Assembly: GCA_902518155.1 (NCBI GenBank)
Contig: CABYFA010000001.1
Location: 7,942 to 71,941, forward strand
Source of the DNA: an uncultured Pelagibacteraceae bacterium
Lineage (GTDB): Bacteria; Pseudomonadota; Alphaproteobacteria; Pelagibacterales; Pelagibacteraceae
Direction of reading: 5' to 3'
DNA: 64,000 nt
In this document: piece by piece, positions 2,956 through 38,553 of the stretch
Layout of the letters: every line of letters begins with the position of its first letter
Numbering within the stretch: position 1 is the stretch's first letter
Notes under the pieces: model-generated
Databases searched by the model: none
What the model was told of the DNA's origin: nothing
Seen by the model: only the letters and a program-made list of their open reading frames with translations
Program-made: the position numbers and the translations under genes

Positions 2956-4074
2956 ATGAGAATTGGCGTACCTAAAGAAATAAAACCTCAAGAAAATAGA
3001 ATTGGCCTGACACCAGATAGTGTGAAAACTCTCGTTTCAGAGGGTCATGAAGTTTTAGTTGAAAATAATGGAGGTTTTGAAGCAGGTTTCGATAACGATC
3101 AGTACAAAAATGCTGGGGCAAAAATTATAGAAAAAGCTGCTGATATTTTTAATGATGCTGAGATAATTGTTAAAGTTAAAGAGCCTCAAAAAGTTGAGGT
3201 TGAAATGATTAGGGAAAATCAAATTGTTTATACCTATTTACATTTGGCTGCTGCAAAAGAATTAACTGAGGGTTTGGTAAAATCAAAAAGTATTAATATT
3301 GCTTACGAAACTATTACGGATGACAATGGACGACTTCCTTTGTTAGCACCTATGAGTGCTGTAGCTGGACGAATGTCAGTTCAAGCAGGAGCACATTGTT
3401 TAGAAAAAAATCAAAAAGGCAGGGGAGTTTTATTAGGAGGAGCTCCTGGCGGTGAGCCTGCAAATGTTTTAATTTTAGGTGGAGGAGTTGTTGGAGAAAA
3501 TGCTGCAACAATAGCAACTGGTATGAAGGCAAAAGTTCATGTTGTTGATAAATCAGAAGCAAGATTAAAACAATTGGTTGATATGTTTGGAGATAAAATT
3601 ATTCCAGAACAAAGTGATAAAATAGACTTAAAAAAGTTAGTGGCCGAAGCAGATTTAATTGTGGGTGGAGTTTTAATTCCTGGCGCAGAGGCACCAAAGT
3701 TGGTTACCAAAGATATGCTTAAGTTAATGAAAAGAGGTTCTGTAATTGTTGATGTTGCAATCGATCAAGGTGGGTGTGTAGAAACAAGTAAACCTACAAC
3801 TTTTAATGATCCAACTTTTATAGTAGATAATGTCGTCCATTATTGTGTAGCTAATATGCCAGGTGGAGTTCCAAGAACTTCCACTATTGCATTAAATAAA
3901 GCAACACTTCCATATTTAGTTAAATTAGCTAACGAAGGTTATCAAAAAGCTCTTGGAGAAGACAAAAACTTTCTAGCGGGACTAAATGTTTACAAGGGTC
4001 ATGTGACTTATAAAGCTGTTGCAGATGTTTTTGGACATGAATATGTTAATCCAGGAGATGCAATCAATAACTAA
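2956..4074 (+). CDS. ald: Alanine dehydrogenase
   Basis: MRIGVPKEIK, KVKEP, YTYLHLAA, PLLAPMSAVAGR, VDVAIDQGGC, HYCVANMPG motifs. Confidence 0.97.
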   Translation: MRIGVPKEIKPQENRIGLTPDSVKTLVSEGHEVLVENNGGFEAGFDNDQYKNAGAKIIEKAADIFNDAEIIVKVKEPQKVEVEMIRENQIVYTYLHLAAAKELTEGLVKSKSINIAYETITDDNGRLPLLAPMSAVAGRMSVQAGAHCLEKNQKGRGVLLGGAPGGEPANVLILGGGVVGENAATIATGMKAKVHVVDKSEARLKQLVDMFGDKIIPEQSDKIDLKKLVAEADLIVGGVLIPGAEAPKLVTKDMLKLMKRGSVIVDVAIDQGGCVETSKPTTFNDPTFIVDNVVHYCVANMPGGVPRTSTIALNKATLPYLVKLANEGYQKALGEDKNFLAGLNVYKGHVTYKAVADVFGHEYVNPGDAINN

Positions 4075-4078
4075 TTAG

Positions 4079-6523
4079 ATGGAAAAAAAACTTCCAAGTA
4101 GCACAAAAGTTGTTGTGATAGGAGGTGGGGTAGTAGGTTGCTCTGTTGCTTATCATTTAGCTAAATTTGGTTGGAAAGACACAATCCTTTTGGAAAGAGA
4201 TCAATTAACCTCAGGAACAACTTGGCATGCAGCAGGTTTAGTAAGTCAATTAGGTCCAACTGCAGCAGTTACAAAAATTAGAAAATATACTTTAGATTTA
4301 TATAAAGAGCTTGAAAAAAAAGTTGATCATTCTGCAGGGTTAAGATTAAACGGAGCCCTTTCAATCGCTCAACATAAAGGCAGATGGCAAGAACTTCAAA
4401 GACAAGCAACGACCGCACAACTTTATGATGTTGATGTAAGAATTTTAGATAAAGATCAAATTAAAAAAGACTACCCCATAATCAATACCGATGATGTCAT
4501 AGGAGGAATTTTAATGCCAGGCGATGGTGCTGCTGATCCTTCAGGTGTCACCCATATGTTGGCTAAAGCAGCAAGAATGGAAGGTGCACAAATTTTTGAA
4601 AAGTCACCAGTTGAGGAAATTTTAACGAAAGATGGAAAAATTTCTGGAGTTAAAGTTAAAGGTCAAAAAATTGAATGTGAATATATCGTTTTAGCCTCAG
4701 GTATGTGGTCAAGGCAAATAGGAGAAAAAGCTGGTGTCAGTATCCCATTATACCCAGCAGAACATTTCTATATTATTACTGAACCAATTGAAAATTTATC
4801 TAAAACCTTACCAGTGGTAAGAGATTTTGATAATCGAACTTATATAAAAGAAGATGCAGGAAAAATACTTGTTGGAATTTTTGAAGGAAATTCAATTCCT
4901 GCTTGGAATAAAACTAATAAAGTTCCAGAAGATTTTTCTTTTGGTGAGTTTCAAGAAAATTTTGAGCATTTTGAACCTTATTTAGCTTCAGCAATTAAAA
5001 GATTTCCAATTTTAGAAACTGCTGGAATAAGAAAATTTTTTTCAGGCCCGGAGTCTTTTACTCCTGATACCAACACTTTATTAGGAGAAGTGCCTGAGGT
5101 TAAAAATTTTTTTGTATGTTGTGGGTTAAATAGTATTGGAATTGGCAGTGGTGGTGGTGTTGGCAAGGTTACAGCGGAGTGGTTGATGACTGGTCATATT
5201 AATGAGGATATTTTTAGTTATGACATAAAAAGATTTCAAAAGTTTCATTCTGAACTAGGTTTTATCAAAAAAAGAATTACAGAGTCATTAGGAGATTTGT
5301 ATGGAATGCATTGGCCCTTTAAACAACACAAAACTTCTCGAGATATAAAAAAACTTCCACATCATGATAATTTAAAAAGCTTTGGAGCCTGTTTTGGTGT
5401 CTCAGGTGGATATGAAAGACCCATGTGGTTTGCATTAGATGGTGAAAAGGCGGAATATGAATATAGTTATAATTATCAAAGTTGGTATCCCTCAGCTGAG
5501 TATGAAACAAATAATACACTTAAAAATGTTGGGTTATTTGATCTAACTCCTTTTTCAAAATTTGAAATCAAATCTGATAAAGCCCATCAAGAGTTACAAA
5601 GAATTTGTACTGCAAATATTAAAAAAGATGTTGGTAAATGTACCTATACTCATATGTTAAATTCAGATGGAGGTATTGAGACTGATTTAACTATAGTGGC
5701 TATTGATGAAAACCATTTTAGAATAATTAGTTCTGCCGCAACAAGAGAAAGAGACAAGCATCACATTAAAAAACATTTAAATAAAGATATTGAATTAATA
5801 GACGTAACTGATGACTATTGTGTTTTTGGTCTATTTGGGCCAAAGAGTAGAAGTCTTATAAGTTCATTAAGTAAAGATAGTTTTGATAATGAAAATTTCA
5901 AATTTGGAACTGCAAAATTTATTTCGCTCGATGATACTAAAATTTGGACACAGAGATTGTCTTATATTGGTGAATTAGGTTATGAGCTTTACGTTGAAGC
6001 TAAAGATGCCAAAAAAATTTATGAATTAATTATAGAAAAAGGAAAAGATTATAATCTTTCAAATTGTGGGATGCATGCAATGGATATTATGCGAATGGAA
6101 AGTGGCTTTCTTCATTGGGGTCATGATATTTCACCTGAGGAAAATCAATATCAAGCAGGTTTATCATTTACAATCAGTAATAAAAAGAATGTAGACTTTA
6201 TTGGTAAGTCAGCTCTTCAAAAGATTGATAAAGAAAAGATTAAGACAAGATTTGCTATGTTTACATTAAAAGATAGTAAACCTGGAGAACCTTTATTACT
6301 TCATGATGAGCCTATTTATTTAGAAGATAAAATAATAGGCAGATCAACTTCAGGAAATTATTCTTTTAACTTTAAGAAAAACCTGACTTTTGGTTATATC
6401 AATAACGATTTTTCTGATGAAAAATTAAAAGGTAGTAAATTATTTATCGAGGTTGAGAAAAAGAAATATGAAATTGAACTGATTAATAAACCATTAAAAA
6501 AAACTAATTTTAAGAGTAATTAA
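4079..6523 (+). CDS. FAD-dependent dimethylglycine/sarcosine dehydrogenase-like protein (DAO + GcvT domains)
   Basis: VVVIGGGVVG Rossmann motif, LTSGTTWHAAG, GPESFTPD, GYERP, C-terminal GcvT part (SYIGELGYEL, RMESGFLHWGHDI); 814 aa. Confidence 0.85.
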   Translation: MEKKLPSSTKVVVIGGGVVGCSVAYHLAKFGWKDTILLERDQLTSGTTWHAAGLVSQLGPTAAVTKIRKYTLDLYKELEKKVDHSAGLRLNGALSIAQHKGRWQELQRQATTAQLYDVDVRILDKDQIKKDYPIINTDDVIGGILMPGDGAADPSGVTHMLAKAARMEGAQIFEKSPVEEILTKDGKISGVKVKGQKIECEYIVLASGMWSRQIGEKAGVSIPLYPAEHFYIITEPIENLSKTLPVVRDFDNRTYIKEDAGKILVGIFEGNSIPAWNKTNKVPEDFSFGEFQENFEHFEPYLASAIKRFPILETAGIRKFFSGPESFTPDTNTLLGEVPEVKNFFVCCGLNSIGIGSGGGVGKVTAEWLMTGHINEDIFSYDIKRFQKFHSELGFIKKRITESLGDLYGMHWPFKQHKTSRDIKKLPHHDNLKSFGACFGVSGGYERPMWFALDGEKAEYEYSYNYQSWYPSAEYETNNTLKNVGLFDLTPFSKFEIKSDKAHQELQRICTANIKKDVGKCTYTHMLNSDGGIETDLTIVAIDENHFRIISSAATRERDKHHIKKHLNKDIELIDVTDDYCVFGLFGPKSRSLISSLSKDSFDNENFKFGTAKFISLDDTKIWTQRLSYIGELGYELYVEAKDAKKIYELIIEKGKDYNLSNCGMHAMDIMRMESGFLHWGHDISPEENQYQAGLSFTISNKKNVDFIGKSALQKIDKEKIKTRFAMFTLKDSKPGEPLLLHDEPIYLEDKIIGRSTSGNYSFNFKKNLTFGYINNDFSDEKLKGSKLFIEVEKKKYEIELINKPLKKTNFKSN

Positions 6524-23809: not shown

Positions 23810-25302
23810 CAGAAGGAATATTAATTGGTTTAACTACAGCATTATCATTTCAAAATATTTTTATGGTTATGATTGGTTGTTTCTTTGGAACAATTATTGG
23901 AATGTTACCTGGTTTAGGTCCAATGACAGCGATTGCTTTAATGATACCAATTACTTATGGTTTTGATCCTGCAACGGGCCTGATTTTAATGGCTGGAGTT
24001 TATTACGGGGCAGTATTTGGTGGTTCTACCTCCTCCATTTTGTTAAATGCACCAGGAGTTCCAGGAACTGTCGCAACTTCTTTCGATGGATATCCAATGG
24101 CACAACAAGGTAAAGCCGGTAAAGCATTAGCTATCGCCGCCTGGAGTTCATTTGCAGGTGGAACACTATCAGCAATTTATTTATTGTTTATGGCTCCAAG
24201 TTTATCAAAAGTAAGTTTATCTTTTAGATCGCCAGATTATTTCGCATTAATGATTTTAGGGTTGACGGCAATAGCAGCTTTTTCATCTAAAGGGCAGTTT
24301 TTAAAAGCAATGATGATGGTGGTATTGGGGTTAATGCTCGCATCTGTTGGGCAAGACTCTTTATCAGATATTACAAGATTTACTTTTGATAATATGAATT
24401 TAACAGACGGAATAAGTTTTGTTTTGGTGGTTATGTCAACATTTGCTATGAGCGAAGCCTTAACAATCATATTAAAGCGAAATGATCCAACAGCTGCAGC
24501 AAAACAAGTTTCTCTAACGGAACTTGGATCAATAAGAATTAATAAAGAAGAACGAGGTAAAATGTATCGAACTATTCCAAGATCCTCAGTTATTGGTTTC
24601 TTGATTGGAGTATTACCTGGTGCGGGTGCCACCATTGCATCATTCTTAGCATATGGAATGGAAAGAAATTTAGTAAAGGATGAAGAAAAAGAAAAATTTG
24701 GAAAAGGAAGTGTGAATGGATTGTCTGCACCTGAAACAGCAAATAATGCAGCATGCTCTGGTTCTTTTGTACCTATGTTAACTTTAGGTATACCGGGAAG
24801 TGGAACTACAGCGGTTATGCTTGGAGCACTTTTGGGTTTTGGTATTCAGCCAGGTCCAAGACTTTATATGACCAATCCTGAAATTTTTTGGTCAGTTATA
24901 ATGTCAATGTATATTGGGATGGTAATATTATTAATATTAAATTTACCTTTAATTCCATACATCGCTAGAATTCTTGCTGTACCAAAAAATTATTTGATTC
25001 CATTAATCTTATTTTTTTCTATTACAGGAATTTATGTAATGTCATTTAATAATTTTGACATTTATTTAATGATTGGCATAGCAGTTGTTGCAACCTTTTT
25101 ACGACTTTATGATTTTCCCATGCCGCCATTGATACTAGCGTTTGTTCTTGGTGGGTTGATGGAGGAGAATTTAAGAAGATCATTACTTTTAAGTAATGGA
25201 TCTTGGGAGTTTCTATGGGACAGAACTCTTACAATTTGTATATTGGTTACAACAATTCTAATTGTTCTGTGGCACATTTATAAAACTCTGACAAAAAAAT
25301 AA
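23806..25302 (+). CDS. tctA: TTT large membrane subunit
   Basis: GMLPGLGP, NAPGVPG, FDGYPMA, PETANNA, LTLGIPGS motifs. Confidence 0.93.
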   Translation: MTEGILIGLTTALSFQNIFMVMIGCFFGTIIGMLPGLGPMTAIALMIPITYGFDPATGLILMAGVYYGAVFGGSTSSILLNAPGVPGTVATSFDGYPMAQQGKAGKALAIAAWSSFAGGTLSAIYLLFMAPSLSKVSLSFRSPDYFALMILGLTAIAAFSSKGQFLKAMMMVVLGLMLASVGQDSLSDITRFTFDNMNLTDGISFVLVVMSTFAMSEALTIILKRNDPTAAAKQVSLTELGSIRINKEERGKMYRTIPRSSVIGFLIGVLPGAGATIASFLAYGMERNLVKDEEKEKFGKGSVNGLSAPETANNAACSGSFVPMLTLGIPGSGTTAVMLGALLGFGIQPGPRLYMTNPEIFWSVIMSMYIGMVILLILNLPLIPYIARILAVPKNYLIPLILFFSITGIYVMSFNNFDIYLMIGIAVVATFLRLYDFPMPPLILAFVLGGLMEENLRRSLLLSNGSWEFLWDRTLTICILVTTILIVLWHIYKTLTKK

Positions 25303-25313
25303 TTTTTAGTTTA

Positions 25314-25652
25314 TTATAGATCTTCATTATGCCAGGTAAAAAGATCTGCTTCATAAGGAATATTTTTAAATTTCAGTAATGCTTTATATTTTCTAAGCCT
25401 ATCCTCTTTTTTAGCACTTTTTAAGTATTCGAGAATTTGATCATAGGTTAGTCCTCTCAACTTATTTTTTTTTACATCTACATACTCCTCATATTCCATA
25501 CCTGCTATCGCATATCCCCTGTTAGGGTCTATGTGCTCTGCATAGCTGATAGTATCTTCATTTTCTTTTAGGATATCGTACCAATGAGCAACCTGATTTT
25601 TTTTATCAAAAAGATAATTTTTTCTGTAATCAAACAGTTTTAATTGATGCAT
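25314..25652 (-). CDS. Hypothetical protein (orphan)
   Basis: 112-aa ORF filling an otherwise empty interval; no family recognised. Confidence 0.6.
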   Translation of the reverse strand: MHQLKLFDYRKNYLFDKKNQVAHWYDILKENEDTISYAEHIDPNRGYAIAGMEYEEYVDVKKNKLRGLTYDQILEYLKSAKKEDRLRKYKALLKFKNIPYEADLFTWHNEDL

Positions 25653-25703: not shown

Positions 25704-25731
25704 TTGAATTATGTCTTAAGTATGATAGAAT
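25704..25731 (+). promoter_or_regulatory. Sigma70-type promoter upstream of the riboswitch
   Basis: TTGAAT (25704-25709), 16-nt spacer, extended -10 TGnTAGAAT (25723-25731); predicted start about 25737. Confidence 0.6.
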
Positions 25732-25736
25732 TAATT

Positions 25737-25794
25737 AGTCCTGATTTAGATCATAACTCTACTTGCTGGGACTTAAAACACAACGCTAAAGGAG
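25737..25794 (+). ncRNA. SAM-II-class riboswitch (H-type pseudoknot), translational
   Basis: P1 AGUCCU/GGGACU; loop GAUUUA; UUGC pairing with GC(U)AA; CUCU pairing with SD GGAG; A-rich L3 UAAAACACAAC; same motif order as the canonical SAM-II consensus. Confidence 0.85.
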
Positions 25795-25798
25795 AAAC

Positions 25799-25966
25799 AT
25801 GAAACTAAAAATACAATCAATTAAAAACTATTTTAAATTAAAAAAGAATAAGGGACTAGAACCATTGTTCTTTGAAAAAATAGGTGATCAAAAAACATCA
25901 AGAGATGAGATGCGTAAAAACATAATTAAAGCTTTAGAAAAGAATGGGTGGACTATAAAAAAATAA
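25799..25966 (+). CDS. Small basic hypothetical protein (55 aa), not in the ORF track
   Basis: SD AAAGGAG 4 nt before ATG; MKLKIQSIKNYFKLKKNKGLEPLFFEKIGDQKTSRDEMRKNIIKALEKNGWTIKK*. Confidence 0.75.
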   Translation: MKLKIQSIKNYFKLKKNKGLEPLFFEKIGDQKTSRDEMRKNIIKALEKNGWTIKK

Positions 25967-36723: not shown

Positions 36724-37717
36724 AAAAAAAATTAACAGAAAAGTTTCAGTTGCACCAATGATGGATTGTACCGATAGGCACGATCGTTTTTTTCTAAGAT
36801 TAATGAGCAAAAATGTAATGCTTTATACCGAGATGGTCGCCACTAAATCAGCAATTCATGGAGATAGAAACAAAATTTTATCATTTAGCCCAGAGGAAAA
36901 ACCTTTAGCTTTACAGGTTGGTGGATCTGATAAAAATGAATTAGCAGAGGTTGCAAAAATTGCAGAGGACATGGGTTATGATGAAATAAATATTAATCTT
37001 GGGTGTCCAAGTAAAAAGGTTCAAAAAAATAAGTTTGGCGCATGTCTAATGAAGGAACCAGACCTAGTAGCGGAATGTATTCATTCTATGGTCAAAGTAT
37101 GTAAAATTCCTGTAACAGCTAAAACTCGTATAGGTTTTGATGATGTCGAAGATTTTGAATATCTTAATAATTTTGTTCACAAATTAAGAGACGTAGGTAC
37201 AAACACATTTATTTTACATGCAAGAAAAGCAATGCTTTCTGGATTATCACCAAAGCAGAATTTGAATATTCCAAAATTAAATTACAACATGGTTTATGAG
37301 ATTAAAAAAGCAAATCCAGATTTAGAAATAATTATAAATGGTGGTATAACCAAAGTAAGCGAAATAAATAATCACATGAAATTTTGTGACGGCGTAATGA
37401 TTGGTAGGTCCATCTACCAAAATCCATATTCGCTGGTTGAAATTGAAAAAGAGATATTCAAAACAAATGACAATCCTTCAAGGGAGGAAGTAGTTAAAAA
37501 ACTTTTAGAATATTTGGATGATGAAGTAAAGAAGGGAACTAAAGTAAATCATATAATGAGACACACAGTTGGTTTATACCATGGTCAGGTAGGTTCGAAA
37601 GAATGGAAAAGATATTTAAGTGATAATATGATGGCAAGAGATTCTGATTTTCAAAAGGCAAAACATATTATGACTATTGTTCAAAATAATGAAAAAGCCA
37701 ATCAAGTAAGTTCCTAA
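36713..37717 (+). CDS. dusA: tRNA-dihydrouridine(20/20a) synthase; probable TTG start at 36713, ORF-track start 36674
   Basis: VAPMMDCTDRH, LQVGGSD, NINLGCPS, HARKA, INGG, GVMIGR, HTVGLYHG. Confidence 0.92.
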   Translation: MDTKKKINRKVSVAPMMDCTDRHDRFFLRLMSKNVMLYTEMVATKSAIHGDRNKILSFSPEEKPLALQVGGSDKNELAEVAKIAEDMGYDEININLGCPSKKVQKNKFGACLMKEPDLVAECIHSMVKVCKIPVTAKTRIGFDDVEDFEYLNNFVHKLRDVGTNTFILHARKAMLSGLSPKQNLNIPKLNYNMVYEIKKANPDLEIIINGGITKVSEINNHMKFCDGVMIGRSIYQNPYSLVEIEKEIFKTNDNPSREEVVKKLLEYLDDEVKKGTKVNHIMRHTVGLYHGQVGSKEWKRYLSDNMMARDSDFQKAKHIMTIVQNNEKANQVSS

Positions 37718-38553
37718 TGGAAACAATTGCCACTGCTGAATTAATAAACTTGTTATTTGTTTTAGCAGTTGCGGCTGCGGGAGCAGGTTTCATGGCTGGA
37801 TTGTTGGGAGTAGGTGGTGGAATTGTTATGGTTCCAGCACTTTATTATGCTTTTACTGTTTTGGATTTTGATATCGTCACGAGAATGCATCTTTCGGTTG
37901 GAACATCACTTGCAATAATTATCCCCACTTCAATCATTTCAACAATGACCCATAAAGAGTATGATGCTGTTGATTTTAAAATGGTAAGATCATTTGGTGT
38001 TTTTATTTTAGCAGGTGTAATTGGTGGAACTTTCTTAGCTGTAAATTTAAAAACTCCCGCATTAGTTTTATTTTTTTCAATCTTCGCTCTCATGGTTGGA
38101 TTGTTTTTTATTTTTTTAAGAGAAAAATTAGTAGATAACCCAAAACAAATTTCAGCTATTGTAAAAAATATTTCTGGTGTAATTATTGGATTTATATCTG
38201 TGCCTTTAGGTATTGGGGGAGGATCTTTAATGGTTCCATTTATGAGGACTTTTGGATATGACATTAGAAAATCAATAGGTACAGCAGCAGCAGTTGGATT
38301 TTTGATTGCTGTAACAGGAACTATTACAATGATAACAGGTGGTAAAATAATTGATAATGTAAGAACACCCTATAGTGTTGGTTATATAAATCTACTAGGA
38401 TTTGCAGTATTTGTCCCAGTTACGATGGTTATGGCTCGAATAGGAGCTAAAGTTGTTCATAAAATTGATAAAAAATTACTTAGTAAAATTTTTGGAATAT
38501 TTTTAATTTTAGTATCAATACGATCTTTTATCGAGTATTTAAGTATAAATTAA
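37717..38553 (+). CDS. TauE/SafE family sulfite exporter/anion permease
   Basis: AGLLGVGGGIVMVP, SVGTSLA, LGIGGGSLMVP, SIGTAAA. Confidence 0.88.
   Translation: METIATAELINLLFVLAVAAAGAGFMAGLLGVGGGIVMVPALYYAFTVLDFDIVTRMHLSVGTSLAIIIPTSIISTMTHKEYDAVDFKMVRSFGVFILAGVIGGTFLAVNLKTPALVLFFSIFALMVGLFFIFLREKLVDNPKQISAIVKNISGVIIGFISVPLGIGGGSLMVPFMRTFGYDIRKSIGTAAAVGFLIAVTGTITMITGGKIIDNVRTPYSVGYINLLGFAVFVPVTMVMARIGAKVVHKIDKKLLSKIFGIFLILVSIRSFIEYLSIN

What the first reader, a model, noticed from the sequence alone, without database searches (positions are those of the whole stretch)
25799..25966. Highly basic 55-aa microprotein, a possible nucleic-acid or ribosome binder
The protein has 14 Lys + 2 Arg versus 6 Asp/Glu, no TM helix and no Cys, with a strong SD (seen). 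The C-terminal RKNIIKALEKNGWTIK resembles the first helix-turn-strand of HicA/dsRBD-like RNA-binding folds but lacks the HicA GSH motif (weak resemblance). It could bind RNA or the ribosome, or inhibit a SAM-consuming enzyme under SAM shortage (speculative).
Basis: partly seen in the sequence, partly recalled or inferred. Interest (0 to 1): 0.6.

Follow-up and report, generated by a model that had tools for sequence, protein, structure and literature searches.

The report
Riboswitch-gated microprotein of SAR11 bacteria
This is a real, conserved 55-residue basic protein found only in SAR11 ocean bacteria; a SAM-sensing RNA switch sits directly on its ribosome-binding site, and it is the simplest form of a wider set of switch-controlled mini-protein cassettes, not found in the literature searched, whose function is unknown.

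Summary
Window 25799-25966 (+) encodes a 55-aa protein (14 K, 2 R, 6 D/E, no Cys, pI 10.2) behind a strong SD. It is a genuine gene: dN/dS is 0.13 in frame against 0.77 and 2.3 in the shifted frames. It has 312 clusters at 90% identity and about 100 at 50%, all 29-116 aa apart from one repetitive 956-aa hit. Named records are all Pelagibacteraceae. No viral or phage copies were found.

It is an accessory gene (33 of 174 good genomes) that sits in many different genomic contexts. In 120 of 120 loci it is preceded by one conserved 60-nt leader that ends at the ATG. The leader resembles SAM-II riboswitches but scores below threshold (Rfam SAM_alpha 20-27 bits, cut-off 36; this genome's own metX SAM-II scores 29). 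Its P1 stem covaries, and the SD lies in the 3' strand of the predicted pseudoknot. A -10 box sits just upstream.

No Pfam, NCBIfam, PHROG, PADLOC, PDB or fold match exists. The HicA resemblance covers 15 residues and fails every HicA criterion.

A sister leader variant drives operons of 1-4 overlapping microprotein genes from several unrelated families, one of them elsewhere in this genome.

Most likely this is an effector made only when SAM is scarce. Its target is unknown.

The scan noted this stretch before (e1-5225538).

The parts
25704..25731 (+). Promoter-like site (TTGAAT, 16 nt, TG-TAGAAT). The -10 hexamer at 25726-25731 ends 5 nt before the leader's first paired base.
   Evidence: Across loci, a box matching TATAAT at 5 of 6 positions or better lies 4-12 nt upstream of P1 in 65 of 89 unique flanks. 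The same test gives 19 in a window shifted 25 nt and 23 in shuffles.
25737..25794 (+). SAM-II-like riboswitch aptamer. P1 pairs 25737-25742 with 25768-25773. Loop L1 (GAUUUAGA) is at 25743-25750. The pseudoknot 5' strand (CUCUACUUGC) is at 25757-25766 and its 3' strand (GCUAAAGGAG) at 25785-25794.
   Evidence: Rfam SAM_alpha scores 21.2 bits, E 0.13, over 25728-25810. My own model R1 scores 89.8 bits. P1 shows three pairs with changes on both sides. The pseudoknot is 99% compatible but invariant.
25791..25794 (+). Shine-Dalgarno GGAG, lying inside the 3' strand of the predicted pseudoknot.
   Evidence: invariant columns.
25799..25966 (+). The 55-aa basic microprotein gene (short form of the family), monocistronic. 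Its stop lies 3 nt from the stop of the convergent glycosyltransferase gene.
25314..25652 (-). Divergent 112-aa ORF of unknown function, a recurrent but not obligatory neighbour of the cassette.
   Evidence: It is adjacent in 8 of 39 and 9 of 79 cassette loci. 9 of 22 loci of this ORF family carry the leader. The family has 838 clusters and no Pfam or PDB match.

Best explanation
The unit is a self-contained, roughly 260-bp cassette: its own promoter, a SAM-II-class translational riboswitch, and one microprotein gene. When SAM is plentiful, the leader is expected to fold into the ligand-bound H-type pseudoknot. The 3' strand of that pseudoknot contains the SD, so the gene stays silent. When SAM falls (in SAR11, this means sulfur or methionine shortage), the SD is freed and the 55-aa protein is made. 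The protein is a small folded two-helix domain with a conserved hydrophobic core and a strongly cationic surface. It most likely acts by binding a macromolecular partner as a SAM-starvation effector. My best guess for the partner is an anionic one such as RNA or the ribosome; a protein partner (a SAM consumer or a transporter) is next. It is the single-gene form of a SAR11-specific, modular family of riboswitch-gated microprotein cassettes. Shown: the gene is real, the leader is conserved and its stem covaries, the SD lies within the pseudoknot strand, and the leader-ORF association is strict. Inferred: SAM binding, the OFF-at-high-SAM logic, and any activity of the protein.
For: Coding: dN/dS is 0.13 against 0.77 and 2.33 in shifted frames. 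There are 312 clusters at 90% identity and 101 at 50%. Leader: it is present and ends at the ATG in 40 of 40 and 80 of 80 loci. It is far more conserved than its flanks. P1 covaries (UG/UA/GC/CG and CG/UG/UA). It shares the SAM-II signature blocks GAUUU, CUUGC, AAAC and CGCUAAAG (alignment). The similarity is reciprocal: this genome's metX SAM-II (L035, upstream of a MetX ORF) scores 29.2 bits with SAM_alpha and 22.4 bits with my model. Specificity: R1 has only two strong hits in this genome, both in front of family members. Promoter: the -10 box is enriched. Fold: AlphaFold pLDDT is 86, with helices at 8-17 and 35-48. The basic charge is kept in most family members. Contigs from four marine metatranscriptome studies cover the leader and the ORF. 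Published work shows that SAM riboswitch genes are the main sulfur-limitation response of Pelagibacter (PMC5069961).
Against: The leader scores below Rfam's gathering threshold (20.5-27.2 against 36 bits). The pseudoknot pairs never vary, so they are neither supported nor refuted. RNAfold energy is no better than shuffles (z 0.19). Ligand binding is untested. Nothing links the protein to any target: Pfam, NCBIfam, PHROGs, PADLOC, PDB sequences, Foldseek, VIA-align and the ESM Atlas are all blank. A few family members are neutral. High Lys content is general in this AT-rich proteome. The metatranscriptome contigs cannot prove transcription.
Confidence: 0.6

Rival explanations
1. The microprotein is a protein-binding modulator, for instance of a SAM-consuming enzyme or of a transporter. 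It would spare SAM or raise uptake during shortage, rather than bind nucleic acid.
For: The SAM-gated logic fits a SAM-sparing role. The cassette often lies beside transporter genes: TctA in the window, DctM, LivJ and the Liv permease. A conserved hydrophobic core with invariant Gly/Asp/Ser/Asn positions suggests a specific interface. The sister operons pair basic and acidic microproteins.
Against: No constant neighbour exists, and contexts differ in ten or more ways. Transporters are common everywhere in SAR11 genomes. There is no direct evidence.
Confidence: 0.25
2. It is a SAM-depletion alarm. The cassettes would be toxic or growth-arresting effectors, released when a phage or another stress drains the SAM pool (an abortive-infection-like guard).
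For: The cassettes are accessory (about 20-25% of genomes) and sit in many contexts, including next to tmRNA, a classic island site. They have their own promoter and a tight translational gate. The sister leader drives mosaic, fast-diversifying arrays of microproteins. Pelagiphages carry genes annotated as SAM-using: speD-like genes in both papers and DNA methyltransferases in the second (bioRxiv 10.1101/410191; PMC12361551).
Against: PADLOC gives no hit. No toxin family matches. No SAM lyase of pelagiphages turned up in the papers searched. No immunity partner exists for the single-gene form. Purifying selection on the short form is ordinary.
Confidence: 0.07
3. It is a truncated HicA-like mRNA interferase or dsRBD-like RNA binder.
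For: There is a weak Pfam HicA_toxin match at the C-terminus in 6 of 35 family members, with best E 0.027.
Against: Only 15 residues match. There is no catalytic His and none of the remaining HicA strands, because the protein ends there. There is no HicB. No fold match reaches Z above 2.7.
Confidence: 0.02
4. The ORF has no function of its own. The leader would act only as an RNA (a SAM sponge or sRNA), or the ORF would be a mere leader peptide.
For: The leader is more conserved than the ORF. Other ORF families can follow the sister leader.
Against: dN/dS is 0.13, third-position variation dominates, and 118 of 120 frames are intact. In most loci nothing lies downstream that a leader peptide could regulate; the next gene is convergent in 51 of 77 loci.
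Confidence: 0.03

Closest known systems
SAM-II riboswitch (Rfam RF00521 SAM_alpha), as upstream of metX, metA and metY in Alphaproteobacteria including Pelagibacter
   Same: It has the same conserved blocks and the same layout: a P1 hairpin, a U-rich L1, CUUGC in the loop and a GCUAAAG 3' tail overlapping the SD. The expected logic is the same, with translation shut off by SAM. It shows reciprocal weak similarity to this genome's own metX SAM-II.
   Different: It scores below the curated threshold, so Rfam's gathering cut-off does not report it. It controls orphan microprotein genes instead of a methionine-pathway enzyme. It travels with its own promoter as a small cassette through many genomic contexts.
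SAM-V riboswitch (RF01826) of Pelagibacter (metY, bhmT, mmuM)
   Same: Same organism group, same ligand class, and translational control through an SD-containing pseudoknot (PMC6061858, PMC5069961).
   Different: The SAM_V model does not match this site, although it finds the genome's true SAM-V at 85.8 bits.
SAR11_1163 and SAR11_1164, small SAR11-only genes of hypervariable region 3 that are induced by sulfur limitation (PMC5069961)
   Same: They are small, lineage-restricted, strain-variable genes tied to the sulfur/SAM response, and are said to have a riboswitch-like upstream region.
   Different: Sequence identity with them was not tested, because the sequences of that strain could not be named here. 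SAR11_1164 is described as a putative lipoprotein with a transmembrane segment, which this family lacks. Several complete genomes of the genus lack the family.
HicA toxin (PF07927)
   Same: Small and basic, with a C-terminal helix followed by a Gly-aromatic strand start that resembles HicA's first helix and strand.
   Different: It lacks the remaining three quarters of the domain, the catalytic His and the HicB partner. It is not a member.
sORF and uORF candidates of strain HIMB5 in Stav et al. 2019 (PMC6429828, Table S1: uORF-10, uORF-6; an unannotated SAM-II riboswitch)
   Same: If genome G013 is HIMB5 (inferred from its 1,343,202-bp contig, from my memory only), their uORF-10 interval directly abuts the long-form operon found here.
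   Different: That paper lists the interval as a cis-regulatory sORF of unknown function. It does not connect it to a SAM riboswitch or to a microprotein family.

Membership tests
SAM-II riboswitch (RF00521) | Covariance-model score at or above the curated gathering score (36 bits) | tested here: not met
   21.2 bits in the window and 20.5-27.2 bits in five other leaders. However, this genome's bona fide metX SAM-II also reaches only 29.2 bits.
SAM-II riboswitch (RF00521) | P1 hairpin supported by covariation | tested here: met
   Three of six pairs show changes on both sides. 92-94% of cells are paired, against 16-67% when the partner is slid.
SAM-II riboswitch (RF00521) | H-type pseudoknot between the hairpin loop (CUUGC) and the 3' tail (GCUAAAG) | tested here: inconclusive
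   99% of cells are compatible, but the pairs are invariant or change on one side only, so there is no covariation for or against. A competing local hairpin (UAGA/UCUA) shows GC, AU and GU pairs.
SAM-II riboswitch (RF00521) | Conserved core nucleotides of the ligand pocket | tested here: met
   GAUUU, CUUGC, AAAC and CGCUAAAG align to the model consensus and are invariant across 120 leaders.
SAM-II riboswitch (RF00521) | Selective binding of SAM | not testable with these tools
   This needs in-line probing, ITC or reporter assays.
SAM-V riboswitch (RF01826) | Match to the SAM_V covariance model | tested here: not met
   No hit at this site at E up to 10, while the genome's own SAM-V scores 85.8 bits.
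HicA toxin (PF07927) | Full HicA domain above the Pfam cut-off (27 bits) | tested here: not met
   13.3 bits, E 0.095, profile positions 2-16 of 58 only. 6 of 35 family members match, with best E 0.027.
HicA toxin (PF07927) | Catalytic His in the strand region after the first helix | tested here: not met
   The protein ends four residues after the Gly-Trp, and the sequence contains no His.
HicA toxin (PF07927) | Adjacent HicB antitoxin gene | tested here: not met
   The downstream gene is a convergent GT4 glycosyltransferase. Neighbours differ among 120 loci.
dsRBD-like fold | Alpha-beta-beta-beta-alpha fold | tested here: inconclusive
   The model (pLDDT 86) has two helices and no strand of three or more residues. 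Foldseek against the PDB gives no match at E 0.001 or better. VIA-align over 48,161 chains gives a best Z of 2.7.
Ribosomal protein bS21 (PF01165) | Profile similarity to S21 | tested here: not met
   hhalign of the family against this genome's own S21 gives probability 2% over 16 columns. Pfam gives no hit.

The most novel reading that the evidence does not exclude
SAR11 uses a dedicated SAM-II-class riboswitch as the sensor of a mobile, diversifying set of microprotein cassettes: one gene here, and up to four overlapping genes behind the sister leader. A fall in SAM, whether from sulfur starvation or from a phage draining the pool, would unleash growth-arresting or defensive microproteins. 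That would make it a riboswitch-triggered stress or abortive-infection module, of a kind not described in the literature I searched.
Probability: 0.07. Interest if true: 0.9.

Novelty: new variant of a known kind. Interest (0 to 1): 0.62.

Why it matters
SAR11 is the most abundant bacterial group in the ocean and has very few regulators, so riboswitches carry much of its sulfur and methionine control. This work finds a SAM-class switch variant that Rfam's gathering threshold does not report. About a quarter of Pelagibacter genomes carry it (38 of 151). It is dedicated to orphan microproteins instead of metabolic enzymes.

That extends the SAM regulon from enzymes to small effector proteins. 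It also gives a clean handle on microprotein function: the inducing signal (low SAM) is already known, the genes are tiny, and there are natural strains with and without the cassette. The modular arrays of translationally coupled microprotein genes behind the sister leader are a further feature that I did not find described in the papers searched.

Tried and rejected
Searches that came back blank or closed:
- Homology searches gave no credible hit: Pfam, NCBIfam, PHROGs, PADLOC, PDB sequences by profile (37) and the ESM Atlas twice (73, 86).
- Fold searches with the pLDDT-86 model gave nothing: Foldseek PDB had no match at E 0.001 or better (45), and VIA-align wide gave a best Z of 2.7 (52).
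- Phage origin: tblastn against 50,697 phage records gave only noise (E 0.3). The IMG/VR scan found no relative.

Ideas tested and rejected:
- bS21 idea, prompted by a 'FYEKP'-like motif: hhalign probability is 2%.
- Ribbon-helix-helix idea (MetJ-like): considered from the strand-helix-helix order only. No RHH family appears in Pfam at E up to 1, and the 17-residue inter-helix loop does not fit. It was not pursued.
- Homology between the finding's family and the acidic 'family B' of the sister operons: it looked plausible by eye, but hhalign gave probability 0.07%.

Checks that proved uninformative:
- RNAfold energy of the leader is no better than shuffles.
- The weak R1 hit inside ilvH (L078) is a false positive.
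- The 112-aa neighbour has only spurious weak matches: AsnRS E 0.023, Cas12g E 2.5e-5 over a short low-complexity stretch, and a methyltransferase-family E 0.14.
- The metatranscriptome contigs cover the locus but cannot prove transcription or give transcript ends.

Full report
THE OBSERVATION

Window 25799-25966 (+) is an ATG-to-TAA frame of 55 codons. The product has 14 Lys, 2 Arg, 2 Asp, 4 Glu, no Cys and 2 Met, with pI 10.2. Lys makes up 25% of residues, against a median of 10% in the window's larger ORFs. GGAG lies 4 nt before the ATG. The description is correct.

IS IT A GENE?

Yes. A word-indexed search found 312 clusters at 90% identity, nearly all 55-60 aa, some named 'hypothetical protein [Candidatus Pelagibacter sp.]'. 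A full profile search of 1.84 billion representatives found 101 clusters, all 29-116 aa apart from one repetitive 956-aa hit. The domain therefore does not occur inside larger proteins.

- Across 34 unique genomic copies, nucleotide diversity by codon position is 0.19/0.10/0.37.
- dN/dS is 0.13 in frame, against 0.77 and 2.33 in the shifted frames.
- 118 of 120 loci keep an intact frame. Two identical copies have an early stop (TAG in L006) at the Trp codon.

WHO HAS IT?

It was found only in SAR11.

- All 80 best loci among 185,579 species representatives carry Pelagibacteraceae or Pelagibacter titles, except one labelled 'uncultured Alphaproteobacteria'.
- It occurs in 33 of 174 high-quality genomes of the family: 31 of 136 in the window's genus, 6 of 137 and 2 of 24 in two other genera, and none in the 16 other genera sampled.
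- No convincing match appeared in the sister family.
- No copy was found in phage records or in IMG/VR.

It is therefore a chromosomal accessory gene.

THE LEADER

Every copy is preceded by the same element of about 60 nt, ending at the ATG: 40 of 40 loci from whole genomes and 80 of 80 from the species collection. The DNA further upstream is unrelated between loci.

Rfam places the leader nearest to SAM_alpha (SAM-II). It scores 21.2 bits in the window and 20.5-27.2 bits elsewhere, below the 36-bit cut-off. It shows no match to SAM_V. This genome's own metX SAM-II also reaches only 29.2 bits. That element matches my model of the microprotein leader at 22.4 bits, so the two are mutually similar.

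- The conserved blocks GAUUU, CUUGC, AAAC and CGCUAAAG align to the SAM-II consensus.
- P1 (25737-25742 with 25768-25773) covaries. One pair is UG, UA, GC or CG; another is CG, UG or UA.
- The loop-to-tail pseudoknot, which would enclose the SD, is 99% compatible but does not vary.
- A local hairpin (UAGA/UCUA) that competes for the anti-SD shows GC, AU and GU pairs. It is also the minimum-energy fold, which leaves the SD free. This is a plausible ligand-free state.
- A -10-like box lies 4-12 nt upstream of P1 in 65 of 89 unique flanks, against 19-23 in controls. In the window it is TG-TAGAAT at 25726-25731.

The cassette is therefore promoter, riboswitch and ORF. SAM binding itself is inferred, not shown.

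CONTEXT

The gene stands alone.

- In the window it lies between tctCBA (+) and a convergent GT4 glycosyltransferase.
- Across loci there are at least ten different settings. They include a site between livJ and a Liv permease, beside dctM, and beside tmRNA and thyX.
- The downstream gene is convergent in 51 of 77 loci, and no operon partner recurs.
- The only recurrent neighbour is a divergent 112-aa ORF (window 25314-25652, minus strand). It is adjacent in about a fifth of cassettes, and 9 of 22 of its own loci carry the leader. It too has no known relatives.

THE PROTEIN

With a 35-sequence alignment, AlphaFold gives pLDDT 86, with helices at 8-17 and 35-48 joined by an ordered loop. Conserved positions form a hydrophobic core plus invariant Gly, Asp, Ser, Arg and Asn positions and several Lys.

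Nothing matches it by sequence or by fold. The HicA likeness is 15 residues at E about 0.1. The catalytic region, the rest of the fold and the HicB partner are all absent. A bS21 idea was tested and rejected.

A WIDER SYSTEM

My leader model finds 43 sites in 38 of 151 good genomes of the genus. This genome has two: the window's, and one on another contig in front of a 77-aa long form.

That 'sister' leader has one extra base pair in P1. It also precedes other microprotein ORFs. In 80 metagenome contigs and several genomes it drives operons of 1-4 tandem ORFs of 43-91 aa. These include:

- the long form of this family;
- an abundant, mostly acidic family, which is a real coding sequence (dN/dS 0.24 against 0.79 and 1.67 in shifted frames);
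- a basic-tailed family;
- hybrids that join a different N-terminal module to the C-terminal half of this family;
- a form consisting of that C-terminal half alone.

Successive ORFs typically overlap by 14 nt. The shared Gly- and Asn-rich C-terminal tail of the upstream proteins is simply the SD and start codon of the next cistron, which indicates translational coupling. In this genome the long form is followed by one acidic member. None of these families has a Pfam match. hhalign does not relate the acidic family to the finding's family.

EXPRESSION

Contigs from four marine metatranscriptome studies cover the leader and the ORF. This is weak evidence, since DNA carry-over cannot be excluded.

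LITERATURE

- SAM-II and SAM-V riboswitches of Pelagibacter are known upstream of metX, bhmT, metY and mmuM (PMC2704228, PMC5069961).
- Sulfur limitation induces those genes and two small orphan genes of a hypervariable region.
- Stav et al. 2019 noted an unannotated SAM-II riboswitch and several sORF candidates in strain HIMB5. One of these abuts the long-form operon if genome G013 is that strain, which I infer from contig size only.
- I found no paper that links a SAM riboswitch to these microproteins.

VERDICT

The finding is real and more interesting than a lone basic ORF. It is the minimal member of a SAR11-specific set of SAM-riboswitch-gated microprotein cassettes.

The regulatory half of the mechanism is well supported by comparison, though not by experiment. 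The activity of the protein is unknown. I rank the options as follows:
- binding to an anionic partner such as RNA or the ribosome, first;
- a protein partner, second;
- a stress or defence effector, as the most novel reading that remains open.

The HicA reading is rejected.

Noticed in passing
L024:1380-1831 (= own genome G000:C2, about 37,410-37,860): A second cassette lies in the same genome. The sister leader is followed by a 77-aa long form of the family, then by an overlapping 55-aa acidic microprotein of another family.
   Followed up: partly
L219-L298 (metagenome contigs), L206-L216, L073, L081:4469-4917: The sister SAM-II-like leader drives operons of 1-4 overlapping microprotein ORFs from several unrelated or mosaic families. 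The shared Gly/Asn-rich C-terminal tails are the SD and start codon of the next cistron (typically a 14-nt overlap).
   Followed up: partly
window 25314-25652 (-): A 112-aa ORF of unknown function is transcribed divergently from the cassette. It is conserved (838 clusters) and travels with the cassette into different wider contexts in about a fifth of loci. It has no credible family or structure match.
   Followed up: partly
L007:1773-2071, L008:1774-2072, L059:1745-2044: In several genomes the cassette lies about 100 nt from the tmRNA gene (alpha_tmRNA, 214-235 bits). tmRNA genes are classic sites for insertion of genomic islands.
   Followed up: no
L209 and L236 (genome G298 and a metagenome contig): A 51-aa ORF directly behind the leader overlaps, in another frame and by about 60 nt, the start of a family member. 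Other contigs have the two fused in frame (protein P0144). This is either a frameshift or a genuine two-ORF arrangement.
   Followed up: no
L006 and L128: Two identical copies of the gene carry an early stop at the conserved Trp codon (TAG in L006), five residues before the normal end. This could be a pseudogene, a tolerated truncation, or the same strain sampled twice.
   Followed up: no
window 24853-24980 (-): There is a sub-threshold Rfam match to Ruegeria Cis8 sRNA (36.6 bits, cut-off 58) inside the tctA coding region. It is probably spurious.
   Followed up: no
L105, L106, L107, L114 (about 3206-5647): In four genomes an 813-aa gene starts 38 nt after the microprotein gene on the same strand. 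It is FAD-dependent and, judged by eye only from its N-terminal sequence, resembles a dimethylglycine/sarcosine dehydrogenase. This is a possible one-carbon/methionine-cycle link, seen in few loci.
   Followed up: no
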